From Lysobacterales bacterium (GTDB taxonomy: Bacteria > Pseudomonadota > Gammaproteobacteria > Xanthomonadales > SZUA-38), in the NCBI GenBank assembly GCA_028285525.1, contig JANQOZ010000106.1, positions 18,822 through 82,821 of the forward strand: a stretch of 64,000 bases of DNA, given 5' to 3'. Shown here in pieces: positions 6,399-39,544 of this stretch (within the stretch, counting starts at the first letter, position 1; every line of letters starts with the position of its first letter). Both the position numbers and the translations under genes were made by a program. A model generated the notes under the pieces. The model was given only the letters and a program-made list of their open reading frames with translations. It made no database searches and was not told where the DNA came from.

Positions 6399-7367
6399 CT
6401 ATTGACCAGCGCCAGTGGCGTTGAAGGCAACCTGTTTTGCCAGTTCCGGAACGTCGTCTACGTCGATGGCCCAGACCTGCAGTATGCCTTGAGCTTGACC
6501 ACGGAGGGGCCGGTCCGAGGTAAAGACCAGCGTGCGACCGTCTGGCGTCAGCCGCGCCGAAAAATCTTCGTAGCCGGAGTTCACCGTTTCTCCGAGGTTG
6601 GCGGGCTTACTCCACTGGTCGCCGGTACGCGTTGAGGCAAAGATATCGGTGCCCCCTGAGCCACCCCGATCGCTGTAGTTCACCAGCATGAGCTGGCCGT
6701 CAGGGCTGACCCAGGCGCCGGCGTCGTTCCCAGGCGAATTGATCGGCGCCGGTAATGGCTCTGGCTTGAGAAAGCCGCCGGCCCCGTCTGCTCGGGCCAC
6801 GTAGACATCTCGATCGCCGACGCCGTCGAGCCTCTCGGTCCAGAAATAGAGGTCGCCGTCCTCCGTGAGTGACGGCGCGGTCTCGTTATTCACATACCGT
6901 AGCGTCCGGACCTTGCCGCCGCGGATTCGATTGATGTCAGGTTCATCCAGCGGCACTGGCTTCGCGCCGGGGTCGTTCAGCTCAAGCGTGTAGAGGTCAA
7001 AGTCTGTGTCGACGTCTTTGCCGCGATGGCGTTCGCGGGGGACCGCACAGGAGAACAGCAGCAGCGAGCCGTCCGGAGAAACTGAAGGCCAGTCAGCCCG
7101 GCCAAGCCGAGGTAGCTTGACCGGTTCGGGAGTGGACCAGCCGGCAGGCCCAAAGGTGGACGTCTTGAGCGTTTGCGGACATTCCCAAATTGGGCTGCAC
7201 TCGGACTGGGCGAAGTAGATCGTTCTCCCGTCGGGCGTAAAGGCGGGCGTCAGCGTGATGCGGCCATCTTGACCCAGCGCTTTTGGCGCGAACCGCTGGG
7301 GTTGCTGAGCGAGAACGGCCGGCGCGAGCAGCAGCACCAGGAGTCCGGCTGAAGAGTTCTTTTTCAT
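6399..7367 (-). CDS. Periplasmic TolB-like PD40 (WD40-like) beta-propeller repeat protein
   Basis: Signal peptide MKKNSSAGLLVLLLAPAVLAQ. Repeated PD40 signatures: TPDGRTIYFA, SPDGSLLLFS, TEDGDLYFW, SPDGQLMLV, TPDGRTLVFTSDR. Confidence 0.75.
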   Translation of the reverse strand: MKKNSSAGLLVLLLAPAVLAQQPQRFAPKALGQDGRITLTPAFTPDGRTIYFAQSECSPIWECPQTLKTSTFGPAGWSTPEPVKLPRLGRADWPSVSPDGSLLLFSCAVPRERHRGKDVDTDFDLYTLELNDPGAKPVPLDEPDINRIRGGKVRTLRYVNNETAPSLTEDGDLYFWTERLDGVGDRDVYVARADGAGGFLKPEPLPAPINSPGNDAGAWVSPDGQLMLVNYSDRGGSGGTDIFASTRTGDQWSKPANLGETVNSGYEDFSARLTPDGRTLVFTSDRPLRGQAQGILQVWAIDVDDVPELAKQVAFNATGAGQ

Positions 7368-23685: not shown

Positions 23686-23704
23686 TCAAAAAAGGGAAAA
23701 TGAA

Positions 23705-24130
23705 ATGACCGATCCAGTCGATTTTCACAAATTCATATTGATTGGAACCGCCGGTGAGCCAACATTCGATGAAGTCGCGCTTGCGAGCTATCATCCACCA
23801 ACAAATGCTGCTGATCGAGTTGGATACACTACAGAATCACTGCTCGGCTCTGATGGAAACCATTGGTACGTGAAGCTTTTGCTCACGGGAAGTTGGCATC
23901 GTGAAGCAAAACGACTAACTTCAGACCTAAAATTTTTCATCGAAACTGAGGATCAGTTGCTCGCTACCAACGTCGATAACGAGGAAATTTTCGCTGATGG
24001 GTGGGAACTGACGGCGTATCGACTTCGTCTGCCGAGAACTGGCGATCCCGCGGGCACCGTCATGGTCGGAGAACTCACCTGGGAAAAGGGAACTCTTGTC
24101 AAAGTTACGAGTTGGTATTGGAAAGAATGA
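23705..24130 (+). CDS. Hypothetical 141-aa protein, operon partner of the CHAT protein
   Basis: The ATG at 23705 is preceded by aaggga. It starts 19 nt after the peroxidase stop and ends 4 nt before the CHAT ATG. No recognisable domain. Confidence 0.5.
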   Translation: MTDPVDFHKFILIGTAGEPTFDEVALASYHPPTNAADRVGYTTESLLGSDGNHWYVKLLLTGSWHREAKRLTSDLKFFIETEDQLLATNVDNEEIFADGWELTAYRLRLPRTGDPAGTVMVGELTWEKGTLVKVTSWYWKE

Positions 24131-24134
24131 AGCT

Positions 24135-27100: not shown

Positions 27101-27347
27101 TACCAGCGGGTTGCTTTCCCGAGGTGCTGGATCTGTGATCGGAACTCTTTGGCCGGTAGATGATCGGGGAACGGCAACCTTTATGTCCCACTTCTACGCG
27201 GGTCTAGATCTCCATGACGGTAATGGAGCAATGGCTCTGCGGTCAGCTCAACGAGCCATGGTCGATTCTCGGAGATATCGCCACCCGAAGTATTGGTCGG
27301 GTTTCGTCATGGTGGCTTCGAACCAAAGCTATACCAGAGTACTCTAA
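24135..27347 (+). CDS. Exported or membrane-anchored TPR-repeat CHAT-domain (caspase-like) protease
   Basis: The ATG at 24135 gives MTRSRNPFDLARNRLGLIGALAFLFATPSILA (signal/anchor). About 700 aa of TPR-like helical repeats follow. The C-terminal CHAT core has the His/Cys dyad (VLHIATHGYF ... RLVIISGCETALG ... GAGSVIGTLWPVDD). Confidence 0.9.
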   Translation: MTRSRNPFDLARNRLGLIGALAFLFATPSILATTVSSESSGIFVGPGETDSEETMVFVLRPSQLAAEVRLEFPSGGSLAFLPAMMPGVAVAGPVAARKASDWLLAPVGNHASIPHDVEVEVYRNSQDEQFGSYSTLSEALNRLYEGTSSGERAALELLQNRLDHGGIKTDSDRHLAYALAKAYGDAGKPELAADLLNSIEARWPDSNLTFIHLAGVARARQAAEEYAAVIELLSPTVARYCADQQFVSEYELDCAKIMLMLAGANLMHASRGQQKELVHLANESLEKLLKTTTLRKSRTLTADTYSLLALAALISGSFSEANTYYQLAMVEFKSNLTTHLDQIRSNRVNRASVLNRLGKVSEAQRILREVLADSSEQMTAESQLGILFNLALTYEETGDWIQSYRYFKQSHDLAERIGDRFSTHLSGFRAASSLRESGDATGALAIHTSALKFFETESPELANRLRVEIARDYLDLGDLLSAQRMISEAMSVSDKIVSTRYRLDALATATEVAWLSADFEKMARYEQKFDSEFREADLLPGVKIDLYLLFLRHSKALGDKAKASEYAKEALDLMESVRRQFTAPAIPKSWAHRTHDLVSENLRRLFHVTCSHTTRCREEAFEMLERHENYWVRAGRRTRLNESLSDANSVEPALRAYRTAEANLVDAARKPEQLAVAMEQLDLARERYLDSRSNLALPEEITTLTFDEIQASLQPDTLVIRFHYDDSTETITAFAVGATQFQSHELSAPDLPRLLNQFALDRGADSHVAGQLYTTLFGNLGSVNWVEIDRLVFVLPALMASTPLAALPIPGSQEHLATRFQIIQTPSVSDFLNERVQPTPSANVADIAIFADPIFGEMIAAQTETEAFRSWSQNLKRLPFTAREAESIQRRFTNRNVVLAARRAATANNLLSEPFRNASVLHIATHGYFSEKTPDVVGLAVSPSNEVGDRGFVSLSQFLAKDIKSRLVIISGCETALGKQYNGAGLESLTSGLLSRGAGSVIGTLWPVDDRGTATFMSHFYAGLDLHDGNGAMALRSAQRAMVDSRRYRHPKYWSGFVMVASNQSYTRVL

Positions 27348-27362
27348 GGCCTGAAGTGTCAC

Positions 27363-28058
27363 CTATTCTGCCACGACCGAGTAAGAAACAGTCGGCGTTG
27401 ATTCCTCAGCAGTGAATACCTCGATCACTAAATCGCCCGTCGGAAGGAAACCAGAGGGGATATAGATTTTCACCTCACCATTGTCGGATTTCAGTCCCGA
27501 AAGTTCTCCTACTGCTTCGCCGTCCGGTTGAGTTATGACTAGGCGATATGAGTCGTTTGCGTTCACAGGTACGCTGGCGTAAACGAGCGAATGTTCACTA
27601 GCAGAAACCCGAGTGGGTTGGATTTCTCCCGAACGCATAGTCTCTAGGTATACCAGGTCTACTTTGTCAGAGATTGCACGCGAGGCTTCGAGCATTGCTT
27701 GGAGCTGTTGATTCTCCCGGCTAGCTGAAACCAATAGAGTTCCCAATCCTACAATGGCCGCTGCCGCGGCAGCCGCAGCAAGTAACGAGCCTGTTAGCCA
27801 CTTGCTCGGATCCGTCTTTCTTGGTGATGGCCCAGGAGCGAAACCCGTCTCGGCGGCTAAGTAATGATCAAGGGCTAGATCTGCGCTCAGATCAAACAAC
27901 AAATCGGGGTGCTCTGCCAGCCAAAGCTCAAACTCTTCCACTTCACGAGTGCTCAGTTGGTTGGCTTGGTATTTCCTAGCGAGACTTTCATCCAGGCCGT
28001 CAAGCGCGAGACGTTCCTGGATTTCTGAGTAAGCCTCGGTTTGGGTTTTCGCCGTCAT
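27363..28058 (-). CDS. Single-pass anti-sigma factor (no zinc-finger cysteines)
   Basis: There is a 4-nt ATGA overlap with the upstream ECF sigma gene. The N-terminal cytoplasmic helix region is LARKYQANQLSTREVEEFELWLAEHPDL, with one TM helix (LLAAAAAAAAIVGLGTLLV) and a ~130-aa extracytoplasmic domain. Confidence 0.65.
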   Translation of the reverse strand: MTAKTQTEAYSEIQERLALDGLDESLARKYQANQLSTREVEEFELWLAEHPDLLFDLSADLALDHYLAAETGFAPGPSPRKTDPSKWLTGSLLAAAAAAAAIVGLGTLLVSASRENQQLQAMLEASRAISDKVDLVYLETMRSGEIQPTRVSASEHSLVYASVPVNANDSYRLVITQPDGEAVGELSGLKSDNGEVKIYIPSGFLPTGDLVIEVFTAEESTPTVSYSVVAE

Positions 28059-28648
28059 TCTCTTCGGCCGTCTAAGTGTTTCTTCGTAAACAACTCGCGA
28101 AGCCTACCTTTTGCCCGGAATAGCACCCGATCAAAAAGACCAGAGTCTAGGTTGAGGTCCCGGCAAATTTCGCCTTTCTCCGCACCTAGAACAAAGTACC
28201 GCCGCAGAATATCTCGGTCTCTCGGTACTGTTAGATCGTCTATGCATTGTTTTGCACACTCGATTAGATCTATCCACTCCGTTTTGGCAGCTACATTTTC
28301 AGGCGAAGCCTCTAGTTCTGCTAACACCTGCGGATCGGATAGGAGTTGCTTGTTTTCACGAGTCATAAACCTTGCGGCCATTCGAAGACCCGTCCGCCGA
28401 AGGTAACCAAGAACTCTATCTGGGTTCTCGACCTTTGCGTCTTGAAGGCTCGTGATTGTCACAACTAGCGCCTCCTGTGCAATGTCTTCAACCCATGACG
28501 ACTCGACGTATCGCTTTCGTATGATGAAAACCAGCCAGCGATAGTACTTCTCATAAAATTGACTCTCCGCATCCTTGTCTCCCTCCATGATTCTCCGGGC
28601 CAATTCTCCGGCCGCGGAGCCTCGGGATGGCTCCGACTCGTCCCCCAC
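28055..28648 (-). CDS. ECF (sigma-70 family, group 4) RNA polymerase sigma factor
   Basis: 197 aa with a GTG start. Region 2 (FYEKYYRWLVFIIRKRY...EDIAQEALV) and region 4 (ILRRYFVLGAEKGEICRDLNL...RAKGRL) are both recognisable. Confidence 0.85.
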   Translation of the reverse strand: MGDESEPSRGSAAGELARRIMEGDKDAESQFYEKYYRWLVFIIRKRYVESSWVEDIAQEALVVTITSLQDAKVENPDRVLGYLRRTGLRMAARFMTRENKQLLSDPQVLAELEASPENVAAKTEWIDLIECAKQCIDDLTVPRDRDILRRYFVLGAEKGEICRDLNLDSGLFDRVLFRAKGRLRELFTKKHLDGRRE

Positions 28649-28820: not shown

Positions 28821-29029
28821 AAACTTGCCTATGCTTTCTTAATTGGATGCGAGCTTTCCCAAGTCCTGTTCACTACTAACGTATGTCAAGGCTACTGATC
28901 CATAGGGTCTGTCGGCAATTTCTGCGCTTTGCCGTAGGAATCTTCAGAAATTCATCAGATTTCTTGCCGCGACAAAAAAGTCCCTACGGTTCACTGTGCT
29001 TTTCCCACACGACGCCCCGGAAAAGCACC

Positions 29030-29653
29030 ATGGAATGCGTAGCAGAGGTCCCTGCGATCCACCGACGAAAAGAGCCGATCCGCAGTAATCTGGCCGAACA
29101 TTTTCTACGTGCCCGGCACGGCGACCAGCAGGCAGAGTCTGCTTTGGTTAATCACCTCTACCCACGGGTGACACGATTCGTCCGGGCTCAGACCCGAAAC
29201 ACGGAGCTTGTTGAGGGGGTGGTTCAGGACACCTTCCTGGTATTCCTAAAAAAAATTCGTGCCGGCGCGCCGGCAGACCCGGCCAAGATCGAAAGCTATG
29301 CGTTCGGGATCGCCCGATTCACCCTAATCGCCCGCTGTCGACTGCTGGCCCGCCTTTCAGAAACGGAGATCTCCGAAGAAATCTCCTGTGACAACGAAGG
29401 AGATTCACCCCTGGATATCGTCCTAGCCGAAGAGGTGTACGCCTGGGTTGAAAAAGCGATCGATCGGCTATCCAAAGAAAGAGACCGACAGTTGATGAGG
29501 CACTACATCGCCGAAGAGTTGGGCACCTCAGATTTGTGTGATTTGATAAAGGTAAGCCGAGACCATCTATACCGCGTGCTGTGGCGTGCAAAGAAGCGCC
29601 TGGGTGAAATCCTCAAGGAAAGCGCCAGGACGCACGAACTGCTTGAATCGTAA
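29030..29653 (+). CDS. ECF sigma factor (second, divergent copy)
   Basis: Region 2 (LVNHLYPRVTRFVRAQT...EGVVQDTFLVFLKK) and region 4 (RQLMRHYIAEELGTSDLCDLIKVSRDHLYRVLWRAKKRL) are present. The ATG at 29030 gives a typical 207 aa. The track ORF starts at ATG 28883, which remains an alternative. Confidence 0.8.
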   Translation: MECVAEVPAIHRRKEPIRSNLAEHFLRARHGDQQAESALVNHLYPRVTRFVRAQTRNTELVEGVVQDTFLVFLKKIRAGAPADPAKIESYAFGIARFTLIARCRLLARLSETEISEEISCDNEGDSPLDIVLAEEVYAWVEKAIDRLSKERDRQLMRHYIAEELGTSDLCDLIKVSRDHLYRVLWRAKKRLGEILKESARTHELLES

Positions 29654-29682: not shown

Positions 29683-31905
29683 ATGGCCAAACGCAAAAAG
29701 ATCGCCATCGTCGGAGGTGGTCCTGCCGGGCTTAGCGCCGCGTTTCATTTGACGCAGGTTAAGGACTGGGATGCGCAATATGACATTACGGTCTATCAGC
29801 CGGGTTGGCGGCTGGGCGGTAAAGGCGCTACCGGCCGGGGTGAGGATACCCATTGGCGCGTTGAAGAACACGGGGTGCATGGCTTTTGCCGTTTTTACTT
29901 CAACACCTGGGGCATGATCAAGGAGGTGTATGAAAAGCTGGACCCGTCACACTACCCTAAGTTGATGTCCACTGAATTGCCGGATGCGTTTCTTCCAACC
30001 TCCTTCAGTTACCCTATCTCCAACGCCGATGAGCTTTATAAGCCGGAGCCGTCGGCGCTGCCGCGACATACCGGGAAGCCATGGTGCACGCCGCTGGCTC
30101 CGCTTCCTGAGCCGATTACGCTGCTCGAGAAACTGCTCCGATCGATAACTCATCGTCAAAATCTCAACGACGCCCTCGCATCCTTCAACCGGGATCTGCA
30201 AGAAATTTACACGTCCAGCTTTCAGCGAATCCTTAATACGCCGAATCGAGTCAAGCTGATGATCGCCATTCATCGTGCCAAAGCCGCGGTGGAGCGCCTA
30301 AGCGAGCGTGAGCATGTCACGGATGCAATCCGCGATACGCTGATCAAGCGATTCAAATCCGTTCAGAAGTACACCCATCAGGAAATCAAGAACCATGAGA
30401 ACGACCAACGGGGCTTCAGCTACCGGCTGACTATCCTGGATATCTTCACTGCGACCATCATTGGGGTTCTTAAAGAGGGGTATCTGACCGAACCGGAGGC
30501 TGAACTCGATCATATTGACGACTTGCGCGCGGACGTGTGGCTGCGGATGCATGGCGCCCATGCCTCGTCGATGAACTCACCGGCTTTTGTTGCAGTGCCG
30601 AATATTCTTTTCTCCTCGCCCAGCGGCAACGACAACCGTTATCCTGAGTTATCCGCTGCGTCGTGGCTGGGTTGGCTGCTTCGCGCGCTGACAGGCGACG
30701 GCGACTATTACTACTTTTTCCAGGCCGGAACTGGCGAATCGGTGATGCTGCCCCTCTATCTTCATCTGGTGGATCAAGGGGTGAAGTTCGAGTTTTTCCA
30801 TAAGCTTCGATCAGTCACTACGGCAACCAACGGCCGCGGTGACCGCAGAATCCATACCCTGCTATTCGATCAACAAGCGCAGCCAACGGACGGCGAGTAC
30901 TACCCTCTGATCAACATGGACTGGGAGAAAGAACCTGGTGCGCCAACCACAAAAGAGGTCTGGCCTAACGAACCGCGCTGGGATCAACTTGTAGACGGCA
31001 CTCAGTTGAAAGACAGCGGGGTCGACTTCGAAGCCTGGGAAAGCCCCTCATCGCCGAAGCCGGGTAAGGTGACATTAACCGAAGGGTCGGAGTTCGATTT
31101 TGTCGTGATGGCGATCCCGCCGTCCGTATTTCCTCTGGTGGGACTGGATTTCGGCGCGTGGCAAATCGCGAACGAACGTCTCTCGACGACCGCAACCCAC
31201 GCCGCCCAGGTCTGGTTTACGAAGAGCACTGCAGAGATGGGCTGGTCATTTGATCCGGACCTGGAACTCCCGCACACCAGCCGGTACGCATCACCCACGT
31301 TTCCGGCGCCGCTCAGTGCCATGGTGGCTTTCGATGATCTGATCCAGTACGAAGGCTGGCCCAAAGATGATCCGCCGGAAGGGCTCCTTTACGCCTGTGG
31401 GCCAATCCAAACCGACAAGAAGGCCACTGAGCCGGAGAAACTCATCCGCACCCAAACCCACGCTGAAAGCATCGTGCGAGTGCTGGGCAATTTTCTTAAG
31501 GACGGTCGACTGGATATCGAAGCGCGCCATGACGCCATGACGCTGGATTTTGAACTAATCTACGATCGGGAAGGTCGCGAAGGCCCGCAACGGATGGGAT
31601 ACCAGTTCTACAAAGTGAACGACGACCCGATGGAGGCCTATGTGCAAGCGCCCCCGCGCAGTGCTTCCGGTCGAATGCACGCTTGGGAAACCGGGTTAAC
31701 CAATACGGTCGCCGCCGGGGACTGGATCTATACCGGCATCAATGTCGGCGCCTTTGAGAGCGCGGTGACTGGCGGAAAGCTCGCCGCTTTCGCGCTAACC
31801 GGTGAGCCACATATCGACGAGATCAAGGGTTTCGACTTTCTCCACGCCGGCGCCCGCCGCAAGGCGAACAAGGCACAAGCTGACGGCCTCATTCCGCTCA
31901 TCTAG
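29683..31905 (+). CDS. Large FAD/NAD(P)-binding oxidoreductase (amine-oxidase / COG3349-like)
   Basis: 740 aa. N-terminal dinucleotide fold KKIAIVGGGPAGLSAAFHL...VYQPGWRLGGKG and C-terminal flavin motif AAGDWIYTGINVGAFESAVTGG. It starts 29 nt after the ECF sigma stop. Confidence 0.8.
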   Translation: MAKRKKIAIVGGGPAGLSAAFHLTQVKDWDAQYDITVYQPGWRLGGKGATGRGEDTHWRVEEHGVHGFCRFYFNTWGMIKEVYEKLDPSHYPKLMSTELPDAFLPTSFSYPISNADELYKPEPSALPRHTGKPWCTPLAPLPEPITLLEKLLRSITHRQNLNDALASFNRDLQEIYTSSFQRILNTPNRVKLMIAIHRAKAAVERLSEREHVTDAIRDTLIKRFKSVQKYTHQEIKNHENDQRGFSYRLTILDIFTATIIGVLKEGYLTEPEAELDHIDDLRADVWLRMHGAHASSMNSPAFVAVPNILFSSPSGNDNRYPELSAASWLGWLLRALTGDGDYYYFFQAGTGESVMLPLYLHLVDQGVKFEFFHKLRSVTTATNGRGDRRIHTLLFDQQAQPTDGEYYPLINMDWEKEPGAPTTKEVWPNEPRWDQLVDGTQLKDSGVDFEAWESPSSPKPGKVTLTEGSEFDFVVMAIPPSVFPLVGLDFGAWQIANERLSTTATHAAQVWFTKSTAEMGWSFDPDLELPHTSRYASPTFPAPLSAMVAFDDLIQYEGWPKDDPPEGLLYACGPIQTDKKATEPEKLIRTQTHAESIVRVLGNFLKDGRLDIEARHDAMTLDFELIYDREGREGPQRMGYQFYKVNDDPMEAYVQAPPRSASGRMHAWETGLTNTVAAGDWIYTGINVGAFESAVTGGKLAAFALTGEPHIDEIKGFDFLHAGARRKANKAQADGLIPLI

Positions 31906-31917
31906 GTTCGGCGGTCG

Positions 31918-34900
31918 ATGACTCAAGAATCCCTCCTAGCCTGCGTGATGTCAGTTCGTCTTCAGGGGTCCGGGGGGGCGCCGAATGAGTTGGAGAGCCT
32001 CGAACGCGTGGTTGCTGGCCGCGGTGGGCGAGTCATCCAAATCGACAGCCAGAGCTTCTTCGGCATCTTGCGAAGCGCAAGTGTCACGATCCAGGTCAGC
32101 GTAGCGCTGGCCCGATTTGCGGCCCAGATGGATCAAACCCAAATCCAAATCGGCATCTGTGCCGGCTCTATCTTCCTGGCCGGTAAGCAGTGCACGGGTC
32201 AGGCCACTGTGGAGGCCTCGCTGCTCAGAGACGCTGCCTCACAGGAGACACCGATCTTGTTGTCGCGCGAGGTCCGCCGGTTTTTGCTCTCCGAAGAATC
32301 GGTTCCTGAACTAAGAAAGCAGGAAAGCGGCCACTATGCCGTGAACTGGAAGGAAACCGCGACAGAATTCAGCTTACCGTTGTTCCTGGTCCCTGGTGAT
32401 CAGCCCATGGTGGGTCGCACCGCAGAACTTCGAGCTCTCAAGCTTTGCGTTTCGCCGCCCCAGGACCAGCCCATGCTGGTCACCGTTGTCGGCGAAGCGG
32501 GGATTGGTAAAACTCGTCTTCTGTCGGAGTTTGCGTTGTTTGCAGCCAACCAGGGTGCCCGAGTATTAGGAGGGCAGGAACACGAAGGGCTTGGTCAACC
32601 GTACGCGAGTTTTCACGATTGTCTCTCACTTTGGCTAAACCAAGTCGACCATGTGGCCCTGCAGTCTCTCGCTTCGGTCGCGCAGCTTGAAAAGATTGTC
32701 CCGGAGATCTCGGAGAGGCTCTACGGCTTAAAAAGCACCGAGGTCGAAAGCGCAGAAACAGAGAAACAGCGTTTGTTTGATGCGTTGGTTGAGTGGCTAG
32801 GGCACCTGGCCGCCGCTCAGCCCACCGTACTGATCTTGGACTCGCTTCATTGGGCCAGCGACAGCACGCTAAAACTCATCGAAGGTGTCATTGCGAACCT
32901 TGATCAAGCGCCGGTCACCATCGTGCTGGCCTCCCGAGAGGAAGATCCGCGAATCAAGCCGCTCACATCACTCGCCGCCGATCAATGGGGCTTGTCCCAG
33001 GTTAAGGAGATTTCTCTGGGAACGCTCACTCGCGACGACATCCGCGTCTTTTATGGCAATACTCTGTCGGACGAGCTCGCTGACTTTATACATGTCACAA
33101 CTCAGGGACGGCCGCTGCATCTGGTCAACCTGATGGATTTTGTTTCCAAAGGAATCGATCTGCCAGAGTCTTTGGAAACAGCCCTGCAGGCGCGTTTCGA
33201 GGAGTTGCCGGCTGCTGCTACGTCCGTTCTGCAAGCGTGTGCGGTATGCGGCCCCCGCTTTACGGCCCGCGTGATCGCTGATGTAAACCGGGATCCTTTG
33301 GATGTGTTTGAGGCGCTGGATCGCGCGACTGAGCTCGGGCTGATCAAGCTGGTCGATTCCGTCAAGCTCAAGTATCAGTTCGCCCACTCTCTGATACGAG
33401 CACATCTCCTGAAGGGTGTCGGTGCAGCCAGACTGGCTCATTTACACGCGCGAGCCGCCGAGGCTTTTCAGCTGCCTCAGAATCGCGAGCTGGCTTCTCC
33501 TGCAGACTTGGCGAGGCTTTATGCCGGTGCTATCTCCCTGGGCTACGTTGCTGAGGCTGCAATGTGGGCAGCGCTGGCTGCCGACGCTGCGCTGAACCAA
33601 CATGCGAACGAAGAAGCGCGCGACATGTATGAGTCTGCCTTAGGTCTTCAGCCCGACCAAAACACCTCCGCGGCTTGCCGCCTCAAGTTGGGTTTAGGCA
33701 TCGCGCTCGCAAGAATCGGAGATACTCGCAGCGACGAAGTTCTGTGGCAAACGGCTGATTTGGCGGAATCGCTTGGCGATGGTGTATTGATGGCGCGCGC
33801 GATGCTGTCGACCTATCGCTTGACGTTCTCCCGCGGTCGAGACGTTGAATTGGAGGCCGTAGAACGCCTGAAAAGGGCTTTGGCCATGCTGCCGGCTGAA
33901 GAAACTGCCTTGGCTACAAGGGTAACGGCGCTGCTAGCCGTTGAGCTCACTTGGTTGGATGACCGCAATCAGGCGGTGGAGACCTCCCAAAGAGCGCTGG
34001 AACTGGCTCGATCAGAATCTTCCGAAATTCTCGCCGAAGTCCAGTCCCGTCGGCTCTGGGTGTTTTTCCACCCCATCGAGCAGCGTCTGAAAGAAAATGT
34101 AGATCTGCTGAAGCTTGTGGCCAAGGCCAAAGACCCGGTGCTTCAGTTTGAGGCTGCCGGCCATGGCGTGTTCACCGCGGTGCGGATCGGTCAACGCGCC
34201 ATGCTCGACCAGAACATGGAATCGATGCGCGCGTCCGCCCGGGTGGTCAACGATCCAAGCGTAAGGAGCATGTGGTATCTGCGCGAATCGGCCGTCGCAT
34301 TGCTTGAAGCACGCTACACCGACAGCTTGACTTACGCTCAACGGCGATTGGAGCTCACCAAACGGACTGGTCAACGTGAGGGAAAGAACGCTTTTCGTAT
34401 TCAAACCTTCTGGGTTGCCTACGAAACGGTCGATAAGGCCGATATGTTGTTTGCCTTGGAGAAGCTGCTGGCCATATTGCCTGGCAGTCCGCTAGAGGAA
34501 TACGCCATCGCTGCGCATGTTGCCGCAGATTGCCAGGAATCGGCGTTGGTCCAGCCGCTGCTTGAACGGTTTGCCAGCTTTGAGTTTGCTCACGACCAGA
34601 CCTTCCTGTGGTTGAACTGCCTGCTGGTGGAGCCGGCAATTGCTGTATGCGACCAGGGCCTGATTGATCGACTCACCTTCAACCTGTCTGATCACCACAG
34701 CGAACATGCCAACACGGTGTTTACTTACCTTGGGCCAGTTGCCCGTTACCTGGGTTTGCTGGAACAGCATCGCGGGAACAATAGCTCAGCGGAGACCTTG
34801 TTCCGTCAATCCGCCCGGTCGGCCCAGGACCTTAAGTCGAAATTTTGGGCCAGCAAGAGCAAACTCAATCTGGCGGCGGTATCCGAGAAAGACTGTGAGT

Positions 34901-34989
34901 CGCTAACGACTGAAGTGGCTGCTCAATCCTCGCAATATGGATGGAAACGATTGCTAAGCCAGTCTCACCAGTTGGCGGCGAAAGTCTAA
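31918..34989 (+). CDS. Degenerate cyclase-homology domain - AAA_16/STAND P-loop NTPase - TPR-like superhelix protein
   Basis: 1023 aa. The N-terminal ~140 aa follow the class III cyclase layout (…GGRVIQIDSQSFFGIL…QIGICAGSIFLAG…GQATVEASLLRDAASQETPILLS) but lack the first metal-binding Asp. Walker A is VVGEAGIGKTRLLSEF and Walker B is VLILDSLHWA. A long helical-repeat C-terminus follows. Confidence 0.8.
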   Translation: MTQESLLACVMSVRLQGSGGAPNELESLERVVAGRGGRVIQIDSQSFFGILRSASVTIQVSVALARFAAQMDQTQIQIGICAGSIFLAGKQCTGQATVEASLLRDAASQETPILLSREVRRFLLSEESVPELRKQESGHYAVNWKETATEFSLPLFLVPGDQPMVGRTAELRALKLCVSPPQDQPMLVTVVGEAGIGKTRLLSEFALFAANQGARVLGGQEHEGLGQPYASFHDCLSLWLNQVDHVALQSLASVAQLEKIVPEISERLYGLKSTEVESAETEKQRLFDALVEWLGHLAAAQPTVLILDSLHWASDSTLKLIEGVIANLDQAPVTIVLASREEDPRIKPLTSLAADQWGLSQVKEISLGTLTRDDIRVFYGNTLSDELADFIHVTTQGRPLHLVNLMDFVSKGIDLPESLETALQARFEELPAAATSVLQACAVCGPRFTARVIADVNRDPLDVFEALDRATELGLIKLVDSVKLKYQFAHSLIRAHLLKGVGAARLAHLHARAAEAFQLPQNRELASPADLARLYAGAISLGYVAEAAMWAALAADAALNQHANEEARDMYESALGLQPDQNTSAACRLKLGLGIALARIGDTRSDEVLWQTADLAESLGDGVLMARAMLSTYRLTFSRGRDVELEAVERLKRALAMLPAEETALATRVTALLAVELTWLDDRNQAVETSQRALELARSESSEILAEVQSRRLWVFFHPIEQRLKENVDLLKLVAKAKDPVLQFEAAGHGVFTAVRIGQRAMLDQNMESMRASARVVNDPSVRSMWYLRESAVALLEARYTDSLTYAQRRLELTKRTGQREGKNAFRIQTFWVAYETVDKADMLFALEKLLAILPGSPLEEYAIAAHVAADCQESALVQPLLERFASFEFAHDQTFLWLNCLLVEPAIAVCDQGLIDRLTFNLSDHHSEHANTVFTYLGPVARYLGLLEQHRGNNSSAETLFRQSARSAQDLKSKFWASKSKLNLAAVSEKDCESLTTEVAAQSSQYGWKRLLSQSHQLAAKV

Positions 34990-35753
34990 GCGAGTGTTCC
35001 TACCCCCTGCGGTAAATCATCGGGGCCAATAAGGTCGATCGCCTCTCCGCTAATTCGAAGCTCTCGTTCAGAAGCTGACTTGAATAACGAAGTCGCTCGC
35101 TGAATCGCTCCGCCCGAAGGGGTTGAGCCCCCCATCAGCACATCGCCGGCACAGATACTCCCTCGAACCGTCGGTCCGCAGAACTCGATGATCGACACCA
35201 TTTTGGCGACGCTATTGGTCACCACCATCATCGTGCTTCCGGCCCGGTGAATTTCCAAAGTACATCCGGGCGATGGGTCGAGCTCAACGAATGGTCCCTG
35301 CGTCGGATCAATTTCGAAAATGCCTACGAGTGCGCACAGAATCTGATCAGAAACGGATTGTTCGTTTCCAATCTCATTGTCTAATCCAGCGGGCATGGGT
35401 GCCTGGTCGATTGCCGGCGAAATTACCTCGATTTCGCCCATCAAGCAGTAGCCAACTTTATGAACCGTTTTGACAAACCTGGGCGGCTTGTCGTCCAGCG
35501 CGCGGCGGAGTTCCGAGATACACCGGGTCAGGGAATCTTCTGTAACGATAGATTTGCCCCAGACCGAGTCGAAAATTTGGTTACGCGTAACCACTTCTCC
35601 CGGCCTGTCTGCGAGGCACATGAGCACGGACATCACCCGGGGCTGAACATTGGTACAGCCTTGAGGTCCTTCAATTCGCCCTTCTAGCGGAAAGACTTGG
35701 TTATCACCCAGCCGAAACGCGGCTGATTCTGGAATGCCCACACCGTCGCCCAA
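34986..35753 (-). CDS. Winged-helix (OmpR/CadC-type trans_reg_C) DNA-binding protein with a C-terminal cyclase-homology-like domain
   Basis: The wHTH is VQPRVMSVLMCLADRPGEVVTRNQIFDSVWGKSIVTEDSLTRCISELRRALDD...VHKVGYCL. The C-terminal ~120 aa (…VRGSICAGDVLMGG…GGAIQRATSLFKSASERELRIS) resemble a degenerate cyclase core. The start is TTG 35753 or GTG 35741. Confidence 0.75.
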   Translation of the reverse strand: MGDGVGIPESAAFRLGDNQVFPLEGRIEGPQGCTNVQPRVMSVLMCLADRPGEVVTRNQIFDSVWGKSIVTEDSLTRCISELRRALDDKPPRFVKTVHKVGYCLMGEIEVISPAIDQAPMPAGLDNEIGNEQSVSDQILCALVGIFEIDPTQGPFVELDPSPGCTLEIHRAGSTMMVVTNSVAKMVSIIEFCGPTVRGSICAGDVLMGGSTPSGGAIQRATSLFKSASERELRISGEAIDLIGPDDLPQGVGTLA

Positions 35754-36145
35754 TCAGAAGGTCAAGTATCTGAGGCGCACAAGCACAGACATTCCGATCA
35801 TGATTTTCACGATCTGGCCCCTGTTCTTTGCATTCTTCTTTCGAAAGCCAACCCATGGCTTTTGCGTCATGGCTTGCTGGACATTTAACAAATGACGCGC
35901 TACCCAACGCGCCATCGCCACCCCTCAAAACAAGAGGTTTTACTTATCACGTCGGAAATTTTTCTTCAAGGCTGAGCCAGCTGAATCATGGGCATTCACT
36001 ATGTGCCATTGGATCTCTCAATCTCTCACCTGACGCATGGGCGCAGCCATTGCTCTTCGGCTCTTAGAAATTATTTGTCGATACAGGTGATAGGAAACCC
36101 GTTGGTATGCCACCTATTTGAACAAAACGAACAATCAGGAGCGGC

Positions 36146-36820
36146 ATGACTATGGCAATCGAAATCTCCCTGGCGGAATCCGCTGAGGAAATCTCAGCAG
36201 CTCGTAGATTCTGGTACGAGGTTTACGTTGTCGAGATGGAGCGTCATCAAAGCGACGAGCGGACCAGTCACGAGGCTCGCGAGTTGTCCGACCCGTTCGA
36301 TGAAATTGGTGCGCTTTTTGTGGCAAGAGACCATGGTCGAGTCGTTGGGACAGTGCTGGGTACCCAGGGCAGAGATACCCATTTTGGGTACTACGATTCG
36401 CTATATCAGCTTCATGAGCTGCCCCCGAACAAGCGCTTGAACGCTTCGCTAACGAACAAGCTGATCGTGGCGCCAGAAAAGCGTCGATCCACGCTCGCAC
36501 TGAAACTGGCGAGCGAGATTTATCGGCTTGGCCTGAGCGACGGTGTTACGCAGAACTACATTGACTGCAATGCCCATCTGGTTGGTTTTTTCAAACGCAT
36601 GGGCTTTCGACGTCACCGAGGGTGGGTCATCCACAAAGATTACGGGCTTGTCTACTCCCTCGTACTGCATCTGGAAGATATCGATCATCTGCGAACCAAG
36701 CGTTCGCCTTTGATCTCGCACTATGAATCTTTCCGAGCCACCACAACCCAACCCAACCCTCAACAAACCAACGGAGCCAACAACAGTGAATGCCCTCCCC
36801 GCTATCCAGCAGCAATTTGA
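36146..36820 (+). CDS. GNAT-superfamily N-acyltransferase with LuxI/FeeM-like (N-acyl amino acid / acyl-HSL synthase) fold
   Basis: 224 aa. AARRFWYEVYVVEMERHQ...ELSDPFDEIGALFVARDHGRVVGTV follows the R..VF..E.GW...E.D.FD....L.V pattern of autoinducer-synthase/FeeM families. The low-complexity C-terminal tail overlaps the next gene. Confidence 0.55.
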   Translation: MTMAIEISLAESAEEISAARRFWYEVYVVEMERHQSDERTSHEARELSDPFDEIGALFVARDHGRVVGTVLGTQGRDTHFGYYDSLYQLHELPPNKRLNASLTNKLIVAPEKRRSTLALKLASEIYRLGLSDGVTQNYIDCNAHLVGFFKRMGFRRHRGWVIHKDYGLVYSLVLHLEDIDHLRTKRSPLISHYESFRATTTQPNPQQTNGANNSECPPRYPAAI

Positions 36821-37529
36821 ATCCGCCCTGACGGAGTTTTCCAAGTGTCGCACCATTCAGCTGCTTCGCGGCGGCGACATCACGGTGGACGACTACAAAT
36901 GGGTGATGCGACAGATCTTTCATCACGCTCGGGAAAATCCGCAGATTCAGGCCCTCGCCACGGTGTACTTTCGCGGCGAGCAGCGCGAAGCGGTACGAGG
37001 TTTTCTGACGCACGCCGTTTCCGAGATTGGCCACGACAAGCTGGCGCTCAATGATCTGGCTCGTTTGGGGGAAGACGTGTCAAGCATCCCCACCGAGAAC
37101 GCCCTGCCGGCGACAACCGCATTGATCGGTTTCCCGTTCTATCAGATCTATAACCTCAACCCGGTCGGCTACCTCGGTTATCTGTATTTTCTAGAGTTCA
37201 CGCCCACCTCTGTCGGCGGTGCCTATATGGCGGCGCTGACCGCCAAAGGTGTGCCGGCCGAAGCTATGACCTTCCTAAAAGACCACGTCACGATCGATGT
37301 GGGGCACAACAAGTTGATGGAAGGCTATGTCGAAAAACTGGTGAATACCGAGGCGGACCTGGAAGCAGTGGGTTACGCCATGCAGGTTACTGCCCGGCTG
37401 TACGCCAACATGCTGGATGGGGCCATCGAGCAGGCGCGCAGCGGTGTGGACTTCGGGCGCAACCTCGAGGAAACCCATCGCTTTGTTGTTCCCCAAGGAG
37501 GGCGGGGAGCGTCGGAGGCAGTAGCCTGA
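36723..37529 (+). CDS. Haem-oxygenase-like iron-containing redox enzyme family protein (HDO-type di-iron oxidase candidate)
   Basis: 268 aa, all-helical. Metal-ligand-like ExxH (HAVSEIGHDK) and DxxH (VTIDVGHNK) are present, with RQIFHHARENP near the N-terminus. The ATG at 36723 overlaps the acyltransferase by 98 nt; GTG at 36786 is an alternative start. Confidence 0.65.
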   Translation: MNLSEPPQPNPTLNKPTEPTTVNALPAIQQQFESALTEFSKCRTIQLLRGGDITVDDYKWVMRQIFHHARENPQIQALATVYFRGEQREAVRGFLTHAVSEIGHDKLALNDLARLGEDVSSIPTENALPATTALIGFPFYQIYNLNPVGYLGYLYFLEFTPTSVGGAYMAALTAKGVPAEAMTFLKDHVTIDVGHNKLMEGYVEKLVNTEADLEAVGYAMQVTARLYANMLDGAIEQARSGVDFGRNLEETHRFVVPQGGRGASEAVA

Positions 37530-37567
37530 ACATCGGGGTCAGTCCTCAGGCTCTGCCTCTATCGCGG

Positions 37568-37599
37568 GGCGGCGCGACCCAGGGGTCGCGCCGCCTTTT
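37568..37599 (+). terminator. Rho-independent terminator after the acyltransferase/HDO pair
   Basis: ggcggcgcgacc (37568-37579), a 4-nt loop, then ggtcgcgccgcc (37584-37595), followed by tttt. Confidence 0.7.
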
Positions 37600-37708
37600 A
37601 ACGCTCACCATGTGCATTAGCTTGGTCAAAGCACTTATTCCTAAAGACCAAAATTCACCGCCGGTTCTCGAGACCGGTGGGTCACCCAATCACCCTTGAG
37701 GCAAGAAA

Positions 37709-39544
37709 ATGGCAAGAGATCGCGCGCAACAAACCTTTGATTTTCGTGTTGAGGCCGCCGAGAAAGCCCGTCAACGTCAGCACCCGGATCACGAAGCCAA
37801 CCCGGATGAGGTCCGCTATGGGTCGGCCAACTACCCGATGAGCTTCACGAAAGGTCTGGCGCACGATCCGACCACTGGGCTGGTAGCCGAAGCGGCTCAT
37901 TTTGAGGCGTTCCGCGCGGCCATCGACGACGGCTATATCGAGCCTTTCACCACCCGAGTACCGGTACCGCAGGATCCCAATTTTGGTCGAAGACTATGGG
38001 AGGCGCCAACGGCGGGCCTCGTCCATGAGTTGCAGGGTCCCGACCCTCAGGCTGTAACGATGCCGCCGGCACCTGCGCTGGGTTCTGAGGAATTGAACTA
38101 TGAGATGGCGGAGGTCTACGAACTTGCTCTGGTTCGCGATTTGCCGTTTGACCAGTGGAACGCTGTTGGCGGGCCAGGCAATCCGACCCTCACCGCCTCG
38201 ATCGATCGGCTCAACAACATGCCCTTCGCGTTGGATGGTTCCGATGGACGTCCGCGAACGCATGAAAACGGCGTGCTCACTTTCCAGAACGCATTCCGAG
38301 GCTCTTCCCACGGCGTAGACCATGGTCCCTATGTCTCACAGCTGATGTTGATCGGCACGATAGATGATCCTTGTGATGGATTGGTTGGCTACGGCGCACA
38401 GCAATTTGATCAACGGGTTCCGCAAGCCGCTGACGGTGACGACTACATGATCACCTGGGATGAATGGCTGGCGGTACAAAACGGTTTTGAGGTGCGTGGA
38501 TCATCCGATGAATGCACGCCCACCGGACCTGGTCAGAACTTCTGCGGAAATCATCGAAGGTTCATCTACACGCCGCGTGATCTCGCTACCTATGTCCATA
38601 TTGATGCGCTGTATCAGGCTTATCTCACGGGCTGCCTGATTCTCCTCAACAAGGGCACGCCGTTCGACCCGGCATTCGAAAGGTTGTCGGCCAGCACCTC
38701 AGGCGAAAAATCTGCCCCGGCATTTTTTGACGCCATCAGCGGGGCTCAAGCACCCGCCAACGCCGGTGGTTTTGCGCTCTTTGGTGGGCCTCATATCTTG
38801 AGCTTGGTGACAGAAGTTGCTACCCGAGCTCTGAAGGCCGTGCGCTACCAGAAGTTCAATGTCCACCTTCGGCTCCGTCCAGAAACGCTCTCCGGGCGGC
38901 TGGAACGAGCGGCGGAGATCGAGCAGGCGCATCCGGTGATTTGCGAAGCGTTTTCCAGCATGGCCAGCGCGCTGGCGCCAACCATCGACGCAATTCGGAA
39001 ACACAATGATGGAACCGGAGGAGCGCCAACCGCGCTGCTGCCCATGGCGTTTGCGGAAGGTTCGCCCATGCATCCGACTTACGGTGCGGGACACGCCACC
39101 GTCGCTGGAGCTTGCGTCACCATTCTTAAGGCATTTTTTGATACCTCTGCGATATTTGCGCGGGTCACCAAGGGTAAAGGCAAAAATCGCGACGTGCAGG
39201 CCGGGTTTTTTGGTGCCGGGCAAATTGCTCGGTTCCGGAACTGCGGGTACACCGTTTCGTTTGGTGCCTACCAAGCCGTAGACGGTGGCCAGAGGCTGGA
39301 TTTCGCCAAGACCGATTGTCCCCTGACGCTGGAAGGAGAGCTCAACAAGCTTGCGGCCAACATCTCGATTGGCCGCAACATGGCCGGCGTTCACTACTAT
39401 TCCGATTACTACGACAGCGTAAGAATGGGGGAGGAGATCGCGATCGGAATCCTGGAAGAGCAGGCGCTCGGCTACGTTAAGGACGATTTTGTTCTATCGC
39501 TGAACACGTTTGACGGAGACGCGGTGAGAATCGGCAGGCCGTGA
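37709..39544 (+). CDS. Vanadium-dependent haloperoxidase (bromoperoxidase-like, PAP2 superfamily)
   Basis: 611 aa. All three vanadate-site motifs are present: K-x7-RP (KFNVHLRLRP), PMHPTYGAGHATVAGACVTILKAFFD, and SIGRNMAGVHYYSDY (the histidine that ligates vanadate). Confidence 0.85.
   Translation: MARDRAQQTFDFRVEAAEKARQRQHPDHEANPDEVRYGSANYPMSFTKGLAHDPTTGLVAEAAHFEAFRAAIDDGYIEPFTTRVPVPQDPNFGRRLWEAPTAGLVHELQGPDPQAVTMPPAPALGSEELNYEMAEVYELALVRDLPFDQWNAVGGPGNPTLTASIDRLNNMPFALDGSDGRPRTHENGVLTFQNAFRGSSHGVDHGPYVSQLMLIGTIDDPCDGLVGYGAQQFDQRVPQAADGDDYMITWDEWLAVQNGFEVRGSSDECTPTGPGQNFCGNHRRFIYTPRDLATYVHIDALYQAYLTGCLILLNKGTPFDPAFERLSASTSGEKSAPAFFDAISGAQAPANAGGFALFGGPHILSLVTEVATRALKAVRYQKFNVHLRLRPETLSGRLERAAEIEQAHPVICEAFSSMASALAPTIDAIRKHNDGTGGAPTALLPMAFAEGSPMHPTYGAGHATVAGACVTILKAFFDTSAIFARVTKGKGKNRDVQAGFFGAGQIARFRNCGYTVSFGAYQAVDGGQRLDFAKTDCPLTLEGELNKLAANISIGRNMAGVHYYSDYYDSVRMGEEIAIGILEEQALGYVKDDFVLSLNTFDGDAVRIGRP

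What the first reader, a model, noticed from the sequence alone, without database searches (positions are those of the whole stretch)
31918..35753. Pseudo-cyclase/STAND/TPR NTPase and a wHTH regulator carrying a second pseudo-cyclase domain, converging with overlapping stop codons
The 1023-aa protein has a class III cyclase-homology layout at its N-terminus. The position of the first metal-binding Asp reads ...VMSVRLQGS..., so the domain is probably catalytically dead. An AAA_16/STAND P-loop (GEAGIGKTRL; LILDSLHW) and a long helical-repeat sensor arm follow.

The convergent 255-aa gene fuses an OmpR/CadC-type winged helix to a ~120-aa region with the same degenerate cyclase pattern (…RGSICAGDVLMGG…GGAIQRATSLFKSASERELRIS). 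The two genes end in the shared tetranucleotide CTAA at 34986-34989 (TAA on the plus strand, TAG on the minus strand). This leaves no room for terminators and forces transcriptional overlap.

Cyclase domains dimerise. The shared pseudo-cyclase modules therefore suggest heterodimerisation between a STAND sensor and a DNA-binding output. That would be an unusual two-protein signalling switch, or an Avs-like sensor with a transcriptional read-out.
Basis: partly seen in the sequence, partly recalled or inferred. Interest (0 to 1): 0.62.

Follow-up and report, generated by a model that had tools for sequence, protein, structure and literature searches.

The report
Dead-cyclase STAND sensor paired with regulator
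Two tail-to-tail regulatory genes, a large ATP-driven sensor and a small DNA-binding protein, each carry a catalytically dead copy of a cyclase domain that normally works as a dimer; the pair recurs in three bacterial lineages, which suggests (untested) that the dead domains couple sensor to regulator.

Summary
The 1023-aa protein has an N-terminal class III cyclase-homology domain (CHD), then an AAA_16 STAND NTPase and a helical arm. A profile of cyclase-bearing relatives scores the CHD at 28.6 bits against 12.1 for the best of 2000 shuffles. Its AF2 model has pLDDT 89, and all top PDB fold matches are cyclases. Both metal-binding Asp, the Asn and the Arg are replaced.

The convergent ~251-aa protein is a CadC-type winged helix plus a ~115-aa domain that Pfam misses. 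An AF2 model built without cyclase sequences has pLDDT 77, and its top 28 PDB matches are all cyclase domains. A distant family member scores 19.6 bits on the cyclase profile. This domain is also dead.

The stop codons share CTAA. The convergent pair, together with an orthologous ECF sigma factor, recurs in three lineages. Relatives fuse wHTH, CHD and STAND in one polypeptide. No defence-system signature was found.

CHD–CHD coupling of sensor to regulator is plausible but untested. The family is very rare. I rate it a new variant of STAND transcription regulators such as AfsR, MalT and Rv0386.

The parts
31918..34989 (+). STAND NTPase gene (1023 aa): pseudo-cyclase domain, AAA_16 NTPase, helical arm
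   Evidence: ORF. AAA_16 E 2e-21. Full-length orthologs P0010 at 59% and the L004 protein at 41% identity.
31918..32355 (+). Degenerate class III cyclase-homology domain of the STAND protein (residues 1-146). Arg14 replaces the first metal Asp, Gln45 the second, Val the catalytic Asn and Leu the transition-state Arg. Helix alpha1 and part of the C-terminal hairpin are deleted.
   Evidence: 28.6 bits on the profile of cyclase-bearing relatives, against 12.1 for the best shuffle. Alignment A3. AF2 pLDDT 88.7. All top Foldseek hits are CHDs. Residue table.
32407..32925 (+). AAA_16 NTPase module (residues 164-336). Walker A GEAGIGKT lies at 32491-32514 and Walker B LILDSLHW at 32830-32853, with Ser in place of the usual second Asp.
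   Evidence: Pfam. The Walker B second position is S in this family and D in 71 of 74 relatives.
32926..34986 (+). C-terminal helical arm or sensor region (residues 337-1023). It is TPR-like only by weak signal and by alignment to TPR-bearing relatives.
   Evidence: TPR_12 E 0.019, sub-threshold. BLAST coverage of 65-95% with TPR-annotated relatives.
34986..35753 (-). wHTH-pseudo-cyclase regulator gene (255 aa from TTG; probable GTG start at 35741, 251 aa)
   Evidence: ORF. Relatives P0002 at 83% and P0003 at 55% identity.
35442..35651 (-). CadC/ToxR/OmpR-type winged-helix DNA-binding domain (residues 35-104)
   Evidence: Trans_reg_C E 3e-17. CadC 5ju7 E 2e-13 and ToxR E 2e-11.
35019..35354 (-). 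Minimal degenerate cyclase-homology domain (residues about 134-245). The GD metal motif is GS. At the Asn and Arg positions it has Gln and Ser. The helices between beta1 and beta2 are absent.
   Evidence: AF2 pLDDT 77 from a 3-sequence alignment. Top 28 Foldseek PDB hits are all CHDs. Relative P0130 scores 19.6 bits on the CHD profile. Alignments.
34986..34989 (.). Shared CTAA: overlapping stop codons of the convergent genes
   Evidence: Sequence. The same junction is an 11-nt overlap in L001/L003 and a 2-nt gap in L004. No terminator-like site at the junction.
28883..29653 (+). ECF sigma factor, orthologous in all three lineages that carry the pair
   Evidence: Sigma70_r2 and TIGR02937. 68% identity to the L003 copy and 35% to the L004 copy.
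29683..31905 (+). 740-aa FAD/NAD-binding oxidoreductase directly upstream of the STAND gene (12-nt gap). It is also present upstream of the STAND ortholog in L004.
   Evidence: NAD_binding_8 and Amino_oxidase. 46% identity to the L004 776-aa protein. Gene order.
35754..36145 (.). Divergent intergenic region between the wHTH gene and the FeeM-like/haem-oxygenase-like operon. It is a candidate regulatory target and contains an imperfect 16-nt direct repeat at 35978-35993 and 36027-36042.
   Evidence: Sequence and repeats. No sigma-70 consensus found. Function untested.
36146..37529 (+). FeeM-like N-acyltransferase and haem-oxygenase-like diiron protein. They are adjacent to the pair in two of three lineages and are possible regulated genes.
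   Evidence: Pfam FeeM and Haem_oxygenas_2. MboA-like in the PDB. Orthologs in L003 at 67% and 87% identity.

Best explanation
I read this as a split STAND-type transcription-control module. The 1023-aa protein is the sensor and switch. Its helical arm receives a signal, and its AAA_16 NTPase binds ATP and changes oligomeric state. Its Walker B carries Ser instead of the second Asp, so hydrolysis is probably slow. The ~251-aa protein is the DNA-binding output, through a CadC-type winged helix.

Both proteins carry a cyclase-homology domain that has lost the metal-binding and transition-state residues, so neither makes cyclic nucleotides. Cyclase-homology domains are obligate head-to-tail dimers. 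The dead domains are therefore most likely kept as protein-protein interaction modules.

The mechanism I favour is that the STAND protein's N-terminal CHD pairs with the regulator's C-terminal CHD. The nucleotide and oligomeric state of the sensor would then control whether the winged helices are released, or assembled in the right number and geometry, to bind DNA. This would rebuild in trans what relatives achieve in one chain (wHTH-BTAD-CHD-AAA_16-TPR, or wHTH-AAA_16-TPR). Likely targets are the neighbouring ECF sigma operon and the divergent FeeM-like/diiron-oxidase operon.

Shown: domain identities, dead catalytic sites, conserved pairing, and fused relatives. Inferred: CHD-CHD contact, the direction of control, and the target genes.
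For: - CHD homology of the STAND N-terminus.
- CHD fold of the regulator's C-domain, from a model built without cyclase sequences. Sequence support via P0130.
- Catalytic residues are lost in both domains, while every other CHD in this STAND clade keeps both metal Asp/Glu and both Arg.
- The convergent abutting pair is conserved in three lineages, including one (L004) whose far flank is entirely different. An orthologous ECF sigma is present each time.
- Single-chain relatives combine the same domains. P0011 and P0031 are wHTH-BTAD-CHD-AAA_16. P0068 is CHD-wHTH-BTAD-AAA_16. P0028 and P0052 are CadC-type wHTH-AAA_16-TPR.
- STAND regulators with an OmpR-type DNA-binding domain are regulated by their NOD/TPR domains and ATP, as shown for AfsR (PMC10936776).
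- CHD dimerisation is established knowledge for class III cyclases.
Against: - No direct evidence exists for a heteromeric contact, and complex modelling could not be run.
- The two CHD families are no closer to each other than to generic CHDs.
- The genes are convergent, not co-transcribed.
- Only four regulator sequences in three lineages are known, so co-occurrence statistics are thin and partly reflect shared ancestry.
- The regulator's AF2 model is of moderate confidence. Two of five models reached about 77 pLDDT and the other three 49-56.
- A CHD on a winged-helix protein could simply homodimerise it.
Confidence: 0.4

Rival explanations
1. The two are linked but not physically coupled. 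The wHTH-CHD protein would be an autonomous one-component regulator whose dead CHD only homodimerises it for DNA binding. The STAND protein's dead CHD would be a homo-oligomerisation or vestigial module. The genes would stay together because they act in the same regulatory circuit with the ECF sigma factor, for example one controlling the other's expression or both controlling the same operons.
For: CHDs commonly homodimerise (established knowledge). [quoted passage not shown] There is no specific similarity between the two CHD families. The genes are convergent rather than in one operon.
Against: It does not explain why both partners, and only this family within the STAND clade, carry degenerate CHDs. 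It does not explain the tight abutting arrangement kept in three lineages. It does not explain why relatives fuse these domains in one chain.
Confidence: 0.33
2. The degenerate CHDs are ligand-binding pseudoenzymes. The dimer-interface pocket would bind a nucleotide or another small molecule without turnover, and that ligand would be the signal. This is comparable to degenerate sites in heterodimeric cyclases. It can coexist with either dimerisation model.
For: Some pocket positions are conserved within each family: Gln at the substrate-specifying Lys position in all three STAND orthologs, and the conserved RGS(I/V)(C/S)(A/C)GDV motif in the regulator. One ortholog keeps the VNEASR motif and another keeps the second Asp.
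Against: The phosphate- and metal-binding residues are mostly gone. No two partners together restore a complete site. No ligand evidence exists.
Confidence: 0.12
3. An ordinary adenylate/guanylate cyclase-AAA-TPR signalling protein with residual activity, next to an unrelated regulator.
For: The closest non-orthologous relatives are PF00211-AAA_16-TPR proteins. TIGR03903 aligns to residues 69-568.
Against: Both metal Asp, the Asn and the Arg are replaced in the window protein, and the metal Asp residues are also lost in P0010. There is no Pfam Guanylate_cyc hit. The neighbour is not unrelated: it carries a CHD fold and is co-conserved.
Confidence: 0.04
4. An Avs-like or other STAND anti-phage defence sensor with a transcriptional read-out.
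For: STAND architecture with a large C-terminal sensor arm. STAND clades switch between defence and non-defence roles (PMC13581612).
Against: PADLOC gives only weak P-loop-level matches (E 0.002-0.004). There is no nuclease, protease or other killing effector. The neighbours are sigma factors, oxidoreductases and small biosynthetic genes, conserved by synteny rather than in a variable defence island. No mobile-element signature was seen.
Confidence: 0.03

Closest known systems
Cyclase-ATPase-TPR(-HTH) STAND proteins: PF00211-AAA_16-TPR relatives found here; M. tuberculosis Rv0386/Rv1358/Rv2488c recalled from memory
   Same: Same order of N-terminal CHD, AAA_16-type STAND NTPase and helical or TPR arm. 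These are the best non-orthologous hits, at 25-30% identity over 65-95% of the protein. P0107 has CHD-AAA_16-TPR-LuxR.
   Different: Those CHDs keep both metal Asp/Glu and both Arg, and Rv0386 is an active cyclase (my recollection). Here the CHD is dead and trimmed, Walker B reads DS, and the DNA-binding domain sits on a separate protein that has its own dead CHD.
AfsR and other large SARP or wHTH-STAND activators (OmpR-type wHTH-BTAD-NOD-TPR)
   Same: An OmpR-family winged helix whose activity is governed by a STAND NTPase and helical sensor (PMC10936776). Relatives in the same STAND clade carry Trans_reg_C with or without BTAD at the N-terminus.
   Different: AfsR is a single chain with a BTAD domain and no CHD. 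Here the winged helix is CadC-type without BTAD, is encoded separately and convergently, and carries a CHD-like domain.
SARP-CHD-STAND fusions (P0011, P0031, P0062, P0112, P0068)
   Same: They contain all the domain types of the pair in one polypeptide: wHTH, CHD, AAA_16 and TPR.
   Different: They have one CHD per chain with intact metal ligands, and a BTAD domain is present. They are not split.
CadC/ToxR-type one-component regulators and CadC-wHTH-TolB_N-like-TPR proteins
   Same: The winged helix is most similar to these (CadC 5ju7 E 2e-13; P0004-P0008 at 50-75 bits). The L004 family member P0130 retains a TolB_N-like middle domain.
   Different: There is no transmembrane segment or periplasmic sensor. 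The C-terminal domain is a minimal dead CHD.
Heterodimeric cyclases with one degenerate site (mammalian AC C1/C2, soluble guanylate cyclase alpha/beta)
   Same: Precedent that CHDs pair heterotypically and that one of the two interface sites can be non-catalytic. The PDB fold hits include sGC and sAC.
   Different: Those heterodimers keep one complete active site. Here no combination of partner residues rebuilds a site in any lineage.

Membership tests
Class III nucleotidyl cyclase (catalytically competent) | Cyclase-homology domain fold (beta-alpha-beta-beta-alpha-beta core) | tested here: met
   STAND N-terminus: AF2 pLDDT 88.7; Foldseek top hits are all CHDs, E 3e-8, TM 0.7-0.8. Regulator C-domain: pLDDT 77; top 28 hits are CHDs, E down to 1.9e-4.
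Class III nucleotidyl cyclase (catalytically competent) | Two metal-binding Asp (beta1 'FxDIxGFT' and the beta2-beta3 'GD') | tested here: not met
   STAND protein: Arg14 and Gln45. P0010: Gln and Leu. Only the L004 ortholog keeps the second Asp. Regulator: GD is GS, GN or GR. An invariant Glu at the end of beta1 is the only candidate first ligand.
Class III nucleotidyl cyclase (catalytically competent) | Transition-state Asn and Arg ('VNxAxR') | tested here: not met
   STAND protein: VEASLL (Asn to Val, Arg to Leu). P0010 keeps VNEASR. L004 has VSEAYR. Regulator: IQRATS (Gln, Ser). P0130: VLRARA.
Class III nucleotidyl cyclase (catalytically competent) | Match to Pfam Guanylate_cyc (PF00211) at gathering score | tested here: not met
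   No hit at E<=1 for either protein. Homology is seen only with a clade-specific profile and by fold.
Class III nucleotidyl cyclase (catalytically competent) | cNMP synthesis in vitro | not testable with these tools
   Needs an enzyme assay.
STAND NTPase (AAA_16 / MalT-AfsR-like) | P-loop NTPase domain with Walker A GxxGxGK[ST] and Walker B hhhhD | tested here: met
   AAA_16 E 2e-21. GEAGIGKT and LILDSLHW are present. The second Walker B acidic residue is Ser, against Asp in 71 of 74 relatives.
STAND NTPase (AAA_16 / MalT-AfsR-like) | C-terminal repeat sensor (TPR or similar) | tested here: inconclusive
   Only sub-threshold TPR_12 (15.6 bits, E 0.019). Long alignments to TPR-bearing relatives exist. 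No structure was predicted for this region.
STAND NTPase (AAA_16 / MalT-AfsR-like) | Signal- and ATP-dependent oligomerisation | not testable with these tools
   Needs biochemistry.
OmpR/CadC-type winged-helix transcription regulator | Trans_reg_C winged-helix domain | tested here: met
   PF00486 E 3e-17, 62.7 bits against a cutoff of 26.2. CadC and ToxR DNA-binding domains are the top PDB sequence hits.
OmpR/CadC-type winged-helix transcription regulator | Sequence-specific DNA binding and promoter activation | not testable with these tools
   Only an untested imperfect direct repeat in the divergent intergenic region.
SARP (Streptomyces antibiotic regulatory protein) | BTAD domain following the winged helix | tested here: not met
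   No BTAD hit in the small protein, whereas fused relatives have it.
Avs / bacterial NLR-like anti-phage defence | Match to a known defence STAND family, plus an effector domain that kills or arrests the cell | tested here: not met
   PADLOC gives only weak P-loop hits, PDC-S27 E 0.0023 and mad8 E 0.0043. No nuclease, protease or TIR-type effector is present.

The most novel reading that the evidence does not exclude
The dead cyclase domains are homotypic adaptor modules. A bacterial STAND sensor would recruit, or release, a separately encoded transcription factor through CHD-CHD pairing, much as CARD-CARD or PYD-PYD contacts recruit effectors to eukaryotic STAND/NLR platforms. This would be the first use of a pseudo-cyclase as a signalling adaptor, and the first two-protein STAND-to-wHTH relay.
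Probability: 0.3. Interest if true: 0.7.

Novelty: new variant of a known kind. Interest (0 to 1): 0.52.

Why it matters
Cyclase-homology domains are studied almost only as enzymes. A conserved gene pair in which both partners keep the fold but have lost the chemistry points to a non-catalytic role for it, as a dimerisation or adaptor module that links a STAND ATP switch to a winged-helix output.

If the two dead domains do pair, this would be a bacterial case of effector recruitment by homotypic domains in STAND signalling. It would also explain why CHD, wHTH and AAA_16 are so often fused in this clade.

The work also defines a small wHTH-miniCHD family that Pfam does not recognise, and corrects a truncated public gene call.

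The limits are real. The family is known from only three lineages of uncultured Pseudomonadota, and no experiment or complex model supports the contact yet.

Tried and rejected
- Pfam and NCBIfam direct scans gave no cyclase hit for either protein. The only lead was a far-sub-threshold TIGR03903 alignment.
- Single-sequence phmmer of the STAND N-terminus against the collected relatives found only the ortholog.
- My first custom profile was contaminated by six kinase segments. I rebuilt it from 16 clean CHDs.
- A test for a specific relationship or recent duplication between the two CHDs was rejected. hhalign gave local P 0.004 and global P 0.11. On the STAND-CHD profile only the window's own small protein stands out (13.1 bits); the L003 and L004 partners do not.
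- A composite active site across partners was rejected. No lineage pair supplies a full residue set.
- Searches for more family members found nothing: GTDB genome representatives, JGI metagenome contigs and a profile word-search. The 1.84-billion representative scan gave one true new member, P0130, plus two repeat-protein artefacts, P0129 and P0131.
- The defence reading was rejected by PADLOC.
- Rfam found no RNA family in the window.
- No promoter or terminator consensus was found at the junction or in the intergenic region.
- The main text of the 2004 actinobacterial cyclase survey (PMC2447327) is not held, so statements about Rv0386/Rv1358/Rv1359 rest on my memory.

Full report
**The observation**

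The two ORFs are as described. The large one runs 31918-34989 on the plus strand (1023 aa). The small one runs 34986-35753 on the minus strand (255 aa from a TTG). The sequence at 34986-34989 is CTAA. It gives TAA for the plus-strand gene and TAG for the minus-strand gene. Relatives of the small protein begin at the position of its fifth codon, so the real start is probably the GTG at 35741, giving 251 aa. The public gene call (P0001, 215 aa) starts at Met41 and removes part of the winged helix.

**Standard domain searches**

Pfam finds only AAA_16 (residues 164-336, E 2e-21) in the large protein and only Trans_reg_C (residues 35-104, E 3e-17) in the small one. There is no Guanylate_cyc hit at E<=1. 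NCBIfam aligns residues 69-568 of the large protein to the cyclase-plus-ATPase part of the TOMM kinase/cyclase model, far below its cutoff. The winged helix is of the CadC/ToxR type.

**The STAND N-terminus is a cyclase-homology domain**

Beyond two orthologs, the closest relatives of the large protein are mostly PF00211-AAA_16-TPR proteins, SARP/wHTH-AAA_16 proteins and kinase-AAA_16-cyclase proteins, at 25-30% identity. I built a profile from the cyclase regions of 16 such relatives.
- It scores residues 26-128 of the window protein at 28.6 bits.
- It scores the orthologs P0010 and the L004 protein at 39.6 and 44.5 bits.
- The best of 2000 shuffled controls scores 12.1 bits.

An AF2 model of residues 1-152 has pLDDT 88.7 and pTM 0.85. 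Its alignment included those cyclase relatives, so it is not independent of them. Its best PDB matches are all class III cyclases, with E 3e-8 and TM 0.7-0.8.

**That domain is catalytically dead**

The second is Gln45. The catalytic Asn is Val, the transition-state Arg is Leu, and the substrate Lys is Gln. Helix alpha1 and part of the C-terminal hairpin are deleted.

The orthologs are degenerate in different ways. P0010 keeps VNEASR but has lost both Asp. The L004 protein keeps the second Asp and the Arg. Every other CHD I could align from this STAND clade keeps both metal Asp/Glu and both Arg. The loss is therefore specific to this family.

**The regulator's C-terminal domain is also a cyclase-homology domain**

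Sequence evidence from the window protein alone is weak. It scores 8.1 bits on the cyclase profile and its relatives score 8.2 and 10.3 bits, in the same register. Two further results make the case.
- An AF2 model of residues 112-255 used only the three family sequences and no cyclases. It reached pLDDT 77.4 and pTM 0.71, although only two of the five models were confident. Its top 28 PDB matches are all cyclase catalytic domains (Rv1264, rhodopsin-guanylyl cyclase, Ma1120, a Silicibacter cyclase), with best E 1.9e-4 and TMq 0.45-0.51. The first unrelated hit has E 0.24.
- A profile scan of 1.84 billion representative proteins found one further true relative, P0130 (E 1.2e-5). Its C-domain scores 19.6 bits on the cyclase profile, against 12.1 for the best of 3000 shuffles.

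The domain is a minimal CHD with no helices between beta1 and beta2. The GD metal motif is GS, GN or GR. The Asn and Arg positions are Gln and Ser, or Leu and Ala in P0130. It cannot be a cyclase.

**Relationship between the two domains**

The shared ICAG stretch gives a local hhalign P of 0.004. On a profile of the three STAND CHDs, only the window's own small protein stands out (13.1 bits), and the partners from the other two lineages do not. I therefore see two independently degenerate CHDs, not a recent duplication. No pair of partners restores a complete active site across a putative heterodimer.

**Co-conservation**

The regulator family is extremely rare. It has four sequences in three lineages among the databases searched and none in GTDB representative genomes. 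In every case where flanks are available, its gene converges on an ortholog of the STAND gene.
- Window and L002: 4-nt overlap.
- L001 and L003 (a Pseudomonadota MAG; STAND 59% identical): 11-nt overlap.
- L004 (STAND 41% identical over 1028 aa; regulator 45% in the wHTH and 26% in the CHD): 2-nt gap.

In L004 the outer flank is unrelated housekeeping DNA. An orthologous ECF sigma factor is present in all three lineages. The 740-aa FAD oxidoreductase directly upstream of the STAND gene is present in two, and the FeeM-like plus haem-oxygenase-like operon in two. No terminator-like site lies at the junction, so some convergent read-through is likely. Whether that matters is unknown.

**Fused relatives**

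In the same STAND clade, P0011 and P0031 are wHTH-BTAD-CHD-AAA_16(-TPR). P0068 is CHD-wHTH-BTAD-AAA_16. P0028 and P0052 are CadC-type wHTH-AAA_16-TPR. P0107 is CHD-AAA_16-TPR-LuxR. The three domain types of the window pair are thus recurrent fusion partners. This supports a functional link between the two genes.

**Mechanism**

STAND regulators with an OmpR-type DNA-binding domain are held in check by their NOD and TPR domains and released by ATP binding, as shown for AfsR (PMC10936776). By analogy, I propose the following.
- The 1023-aa protein is the sensor and ATP switch. Its Walker B reads DS, where 71 of 74 relatives read DD, which suggests slow hydrolysis. This point is inferred.
- The small protein is the DNA-binding output.
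- The two dead CHDs serve as interaction modules, because CHDs are obligate dimers (established knowledge).

I favour heterotypic CHD-CHD coupling, with confidence about 0.4. The main rival, at about 0.33, is that each CHD only homodimerises its own protein and the genes are linked through a shared circuit with the ECF sigma. A ligand-binding pseudo-site is possible and compatible with either model. Residual cyclase activity and a defence role are unlikely. I could not model the complex.

**Comparison and novelty**

The large protein works like, and is related to, cyclase-ATPase-TPR STAND proteins. From memory, the mycobacterial Rv0386/Rv1358/Rv2488c group belongs here. It fails the tests for an active class III cyclase. 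The pair as a whole resembles AfsR-type wHTH-STAND activators split into two proteins, but it lacks BTAD and adds a CHD to each half. I found no description of a wHTH-miniCHD family or of paired dead CHDs in the literature searched, but that search was limited. I rate it a new variant of a known kind. It is moderately interesting: the domain calls are solid, the coupling mechanism is attractive but untested, and the family is very rare.

Noticed in passing
window 35631-35753 (minus strand): The public gene call for the regulator (P0001, 215 aa) starts at Met41 and truncates the winged helix. Relatives P0002 and P0003 support a GTG start at 35741 (251 aa). The TTG at 35753 is immediately preceded by an in-frame TGA.
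   Followed up: partly
window 32830-32853: Walker B of the STAND protein is LILDSLHW. The Ser replaces the second acidic residue in all four family members seen (window, P0010, L001, L004), whereas 71 of 74 relatives have Asp. This suggests ATP binding with impaired hydrolysis.
   Followed up: partly
L004 about 6950-7070: The L004 regulator gene (P0130) appears frameshifted near its 5' end. The first part of the winged helix (FRIGDLTIFPMQGIIEGPSGPTHIQPK) is in a different frame from the called ORF. This is either an assembly error or a pseudogene.
   Followed up: no
L004 7064-8125 (P0130 residues about 75-215): The distant family member carries an extra TolB_N-like domain between the winged helix and the mini-CHD. 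This links the family to the common CadC-wHTH-TolB_N-like-TPR proteins. I identified the domain by eye, not with a profile search.
   Followed up: no
window 22303-28648: A block is conserved between the window and L003 at 46-70% identity: an animal-haem-peroxidase-like protein, a small ORF, a 1083-aa TPR-CHAT protein, and on the minus strand an anti-sigma-like 231-aa protein plus a second sigma-like 197-aa protein.
   Followed up: partly
window 36146-39544: A small putative biosynthetic cassette: a FeeM-like N-acyltransferase, a haem-oxygenase-like diiron protein (PDB MboA, mangotoxin biosynthesis, E 1e-6) whose ORF overlaps the FeeM ORF, and a 611-aa protein with a weak vanadium-chloroperoxidase-like hit in precomputed Pfam only.
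   Followed up: partly
window 29683-31905: The 740-aa FAD/NAD-binding oxidoreductase ends 12 nt before the STAND start. It has no sequence-detectable PDB relative, and only its N-terminal Rossmann motif matches known families. It is conserved upstream of the STAND ortholog in L004 (46% identity) but absent in L003.
   Followed up: partly
window 35978-35993 and 36027-36042: An imperfect 16-nt direct repeat (CAGCTGAATCATGGGC / CACCTGACGCATGGGC, 49 nt apart) lies in the divergent intergenic region. It is a possible winged-helix binding site but could be chance.
   Followed up: no
window 28883-29653: The ECF sigma ORF is 256 aa from its first ATG, but public calls and orthologs are 167-220 aa. The first ~50-90 residues are probably not translated.
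   Followed up: no
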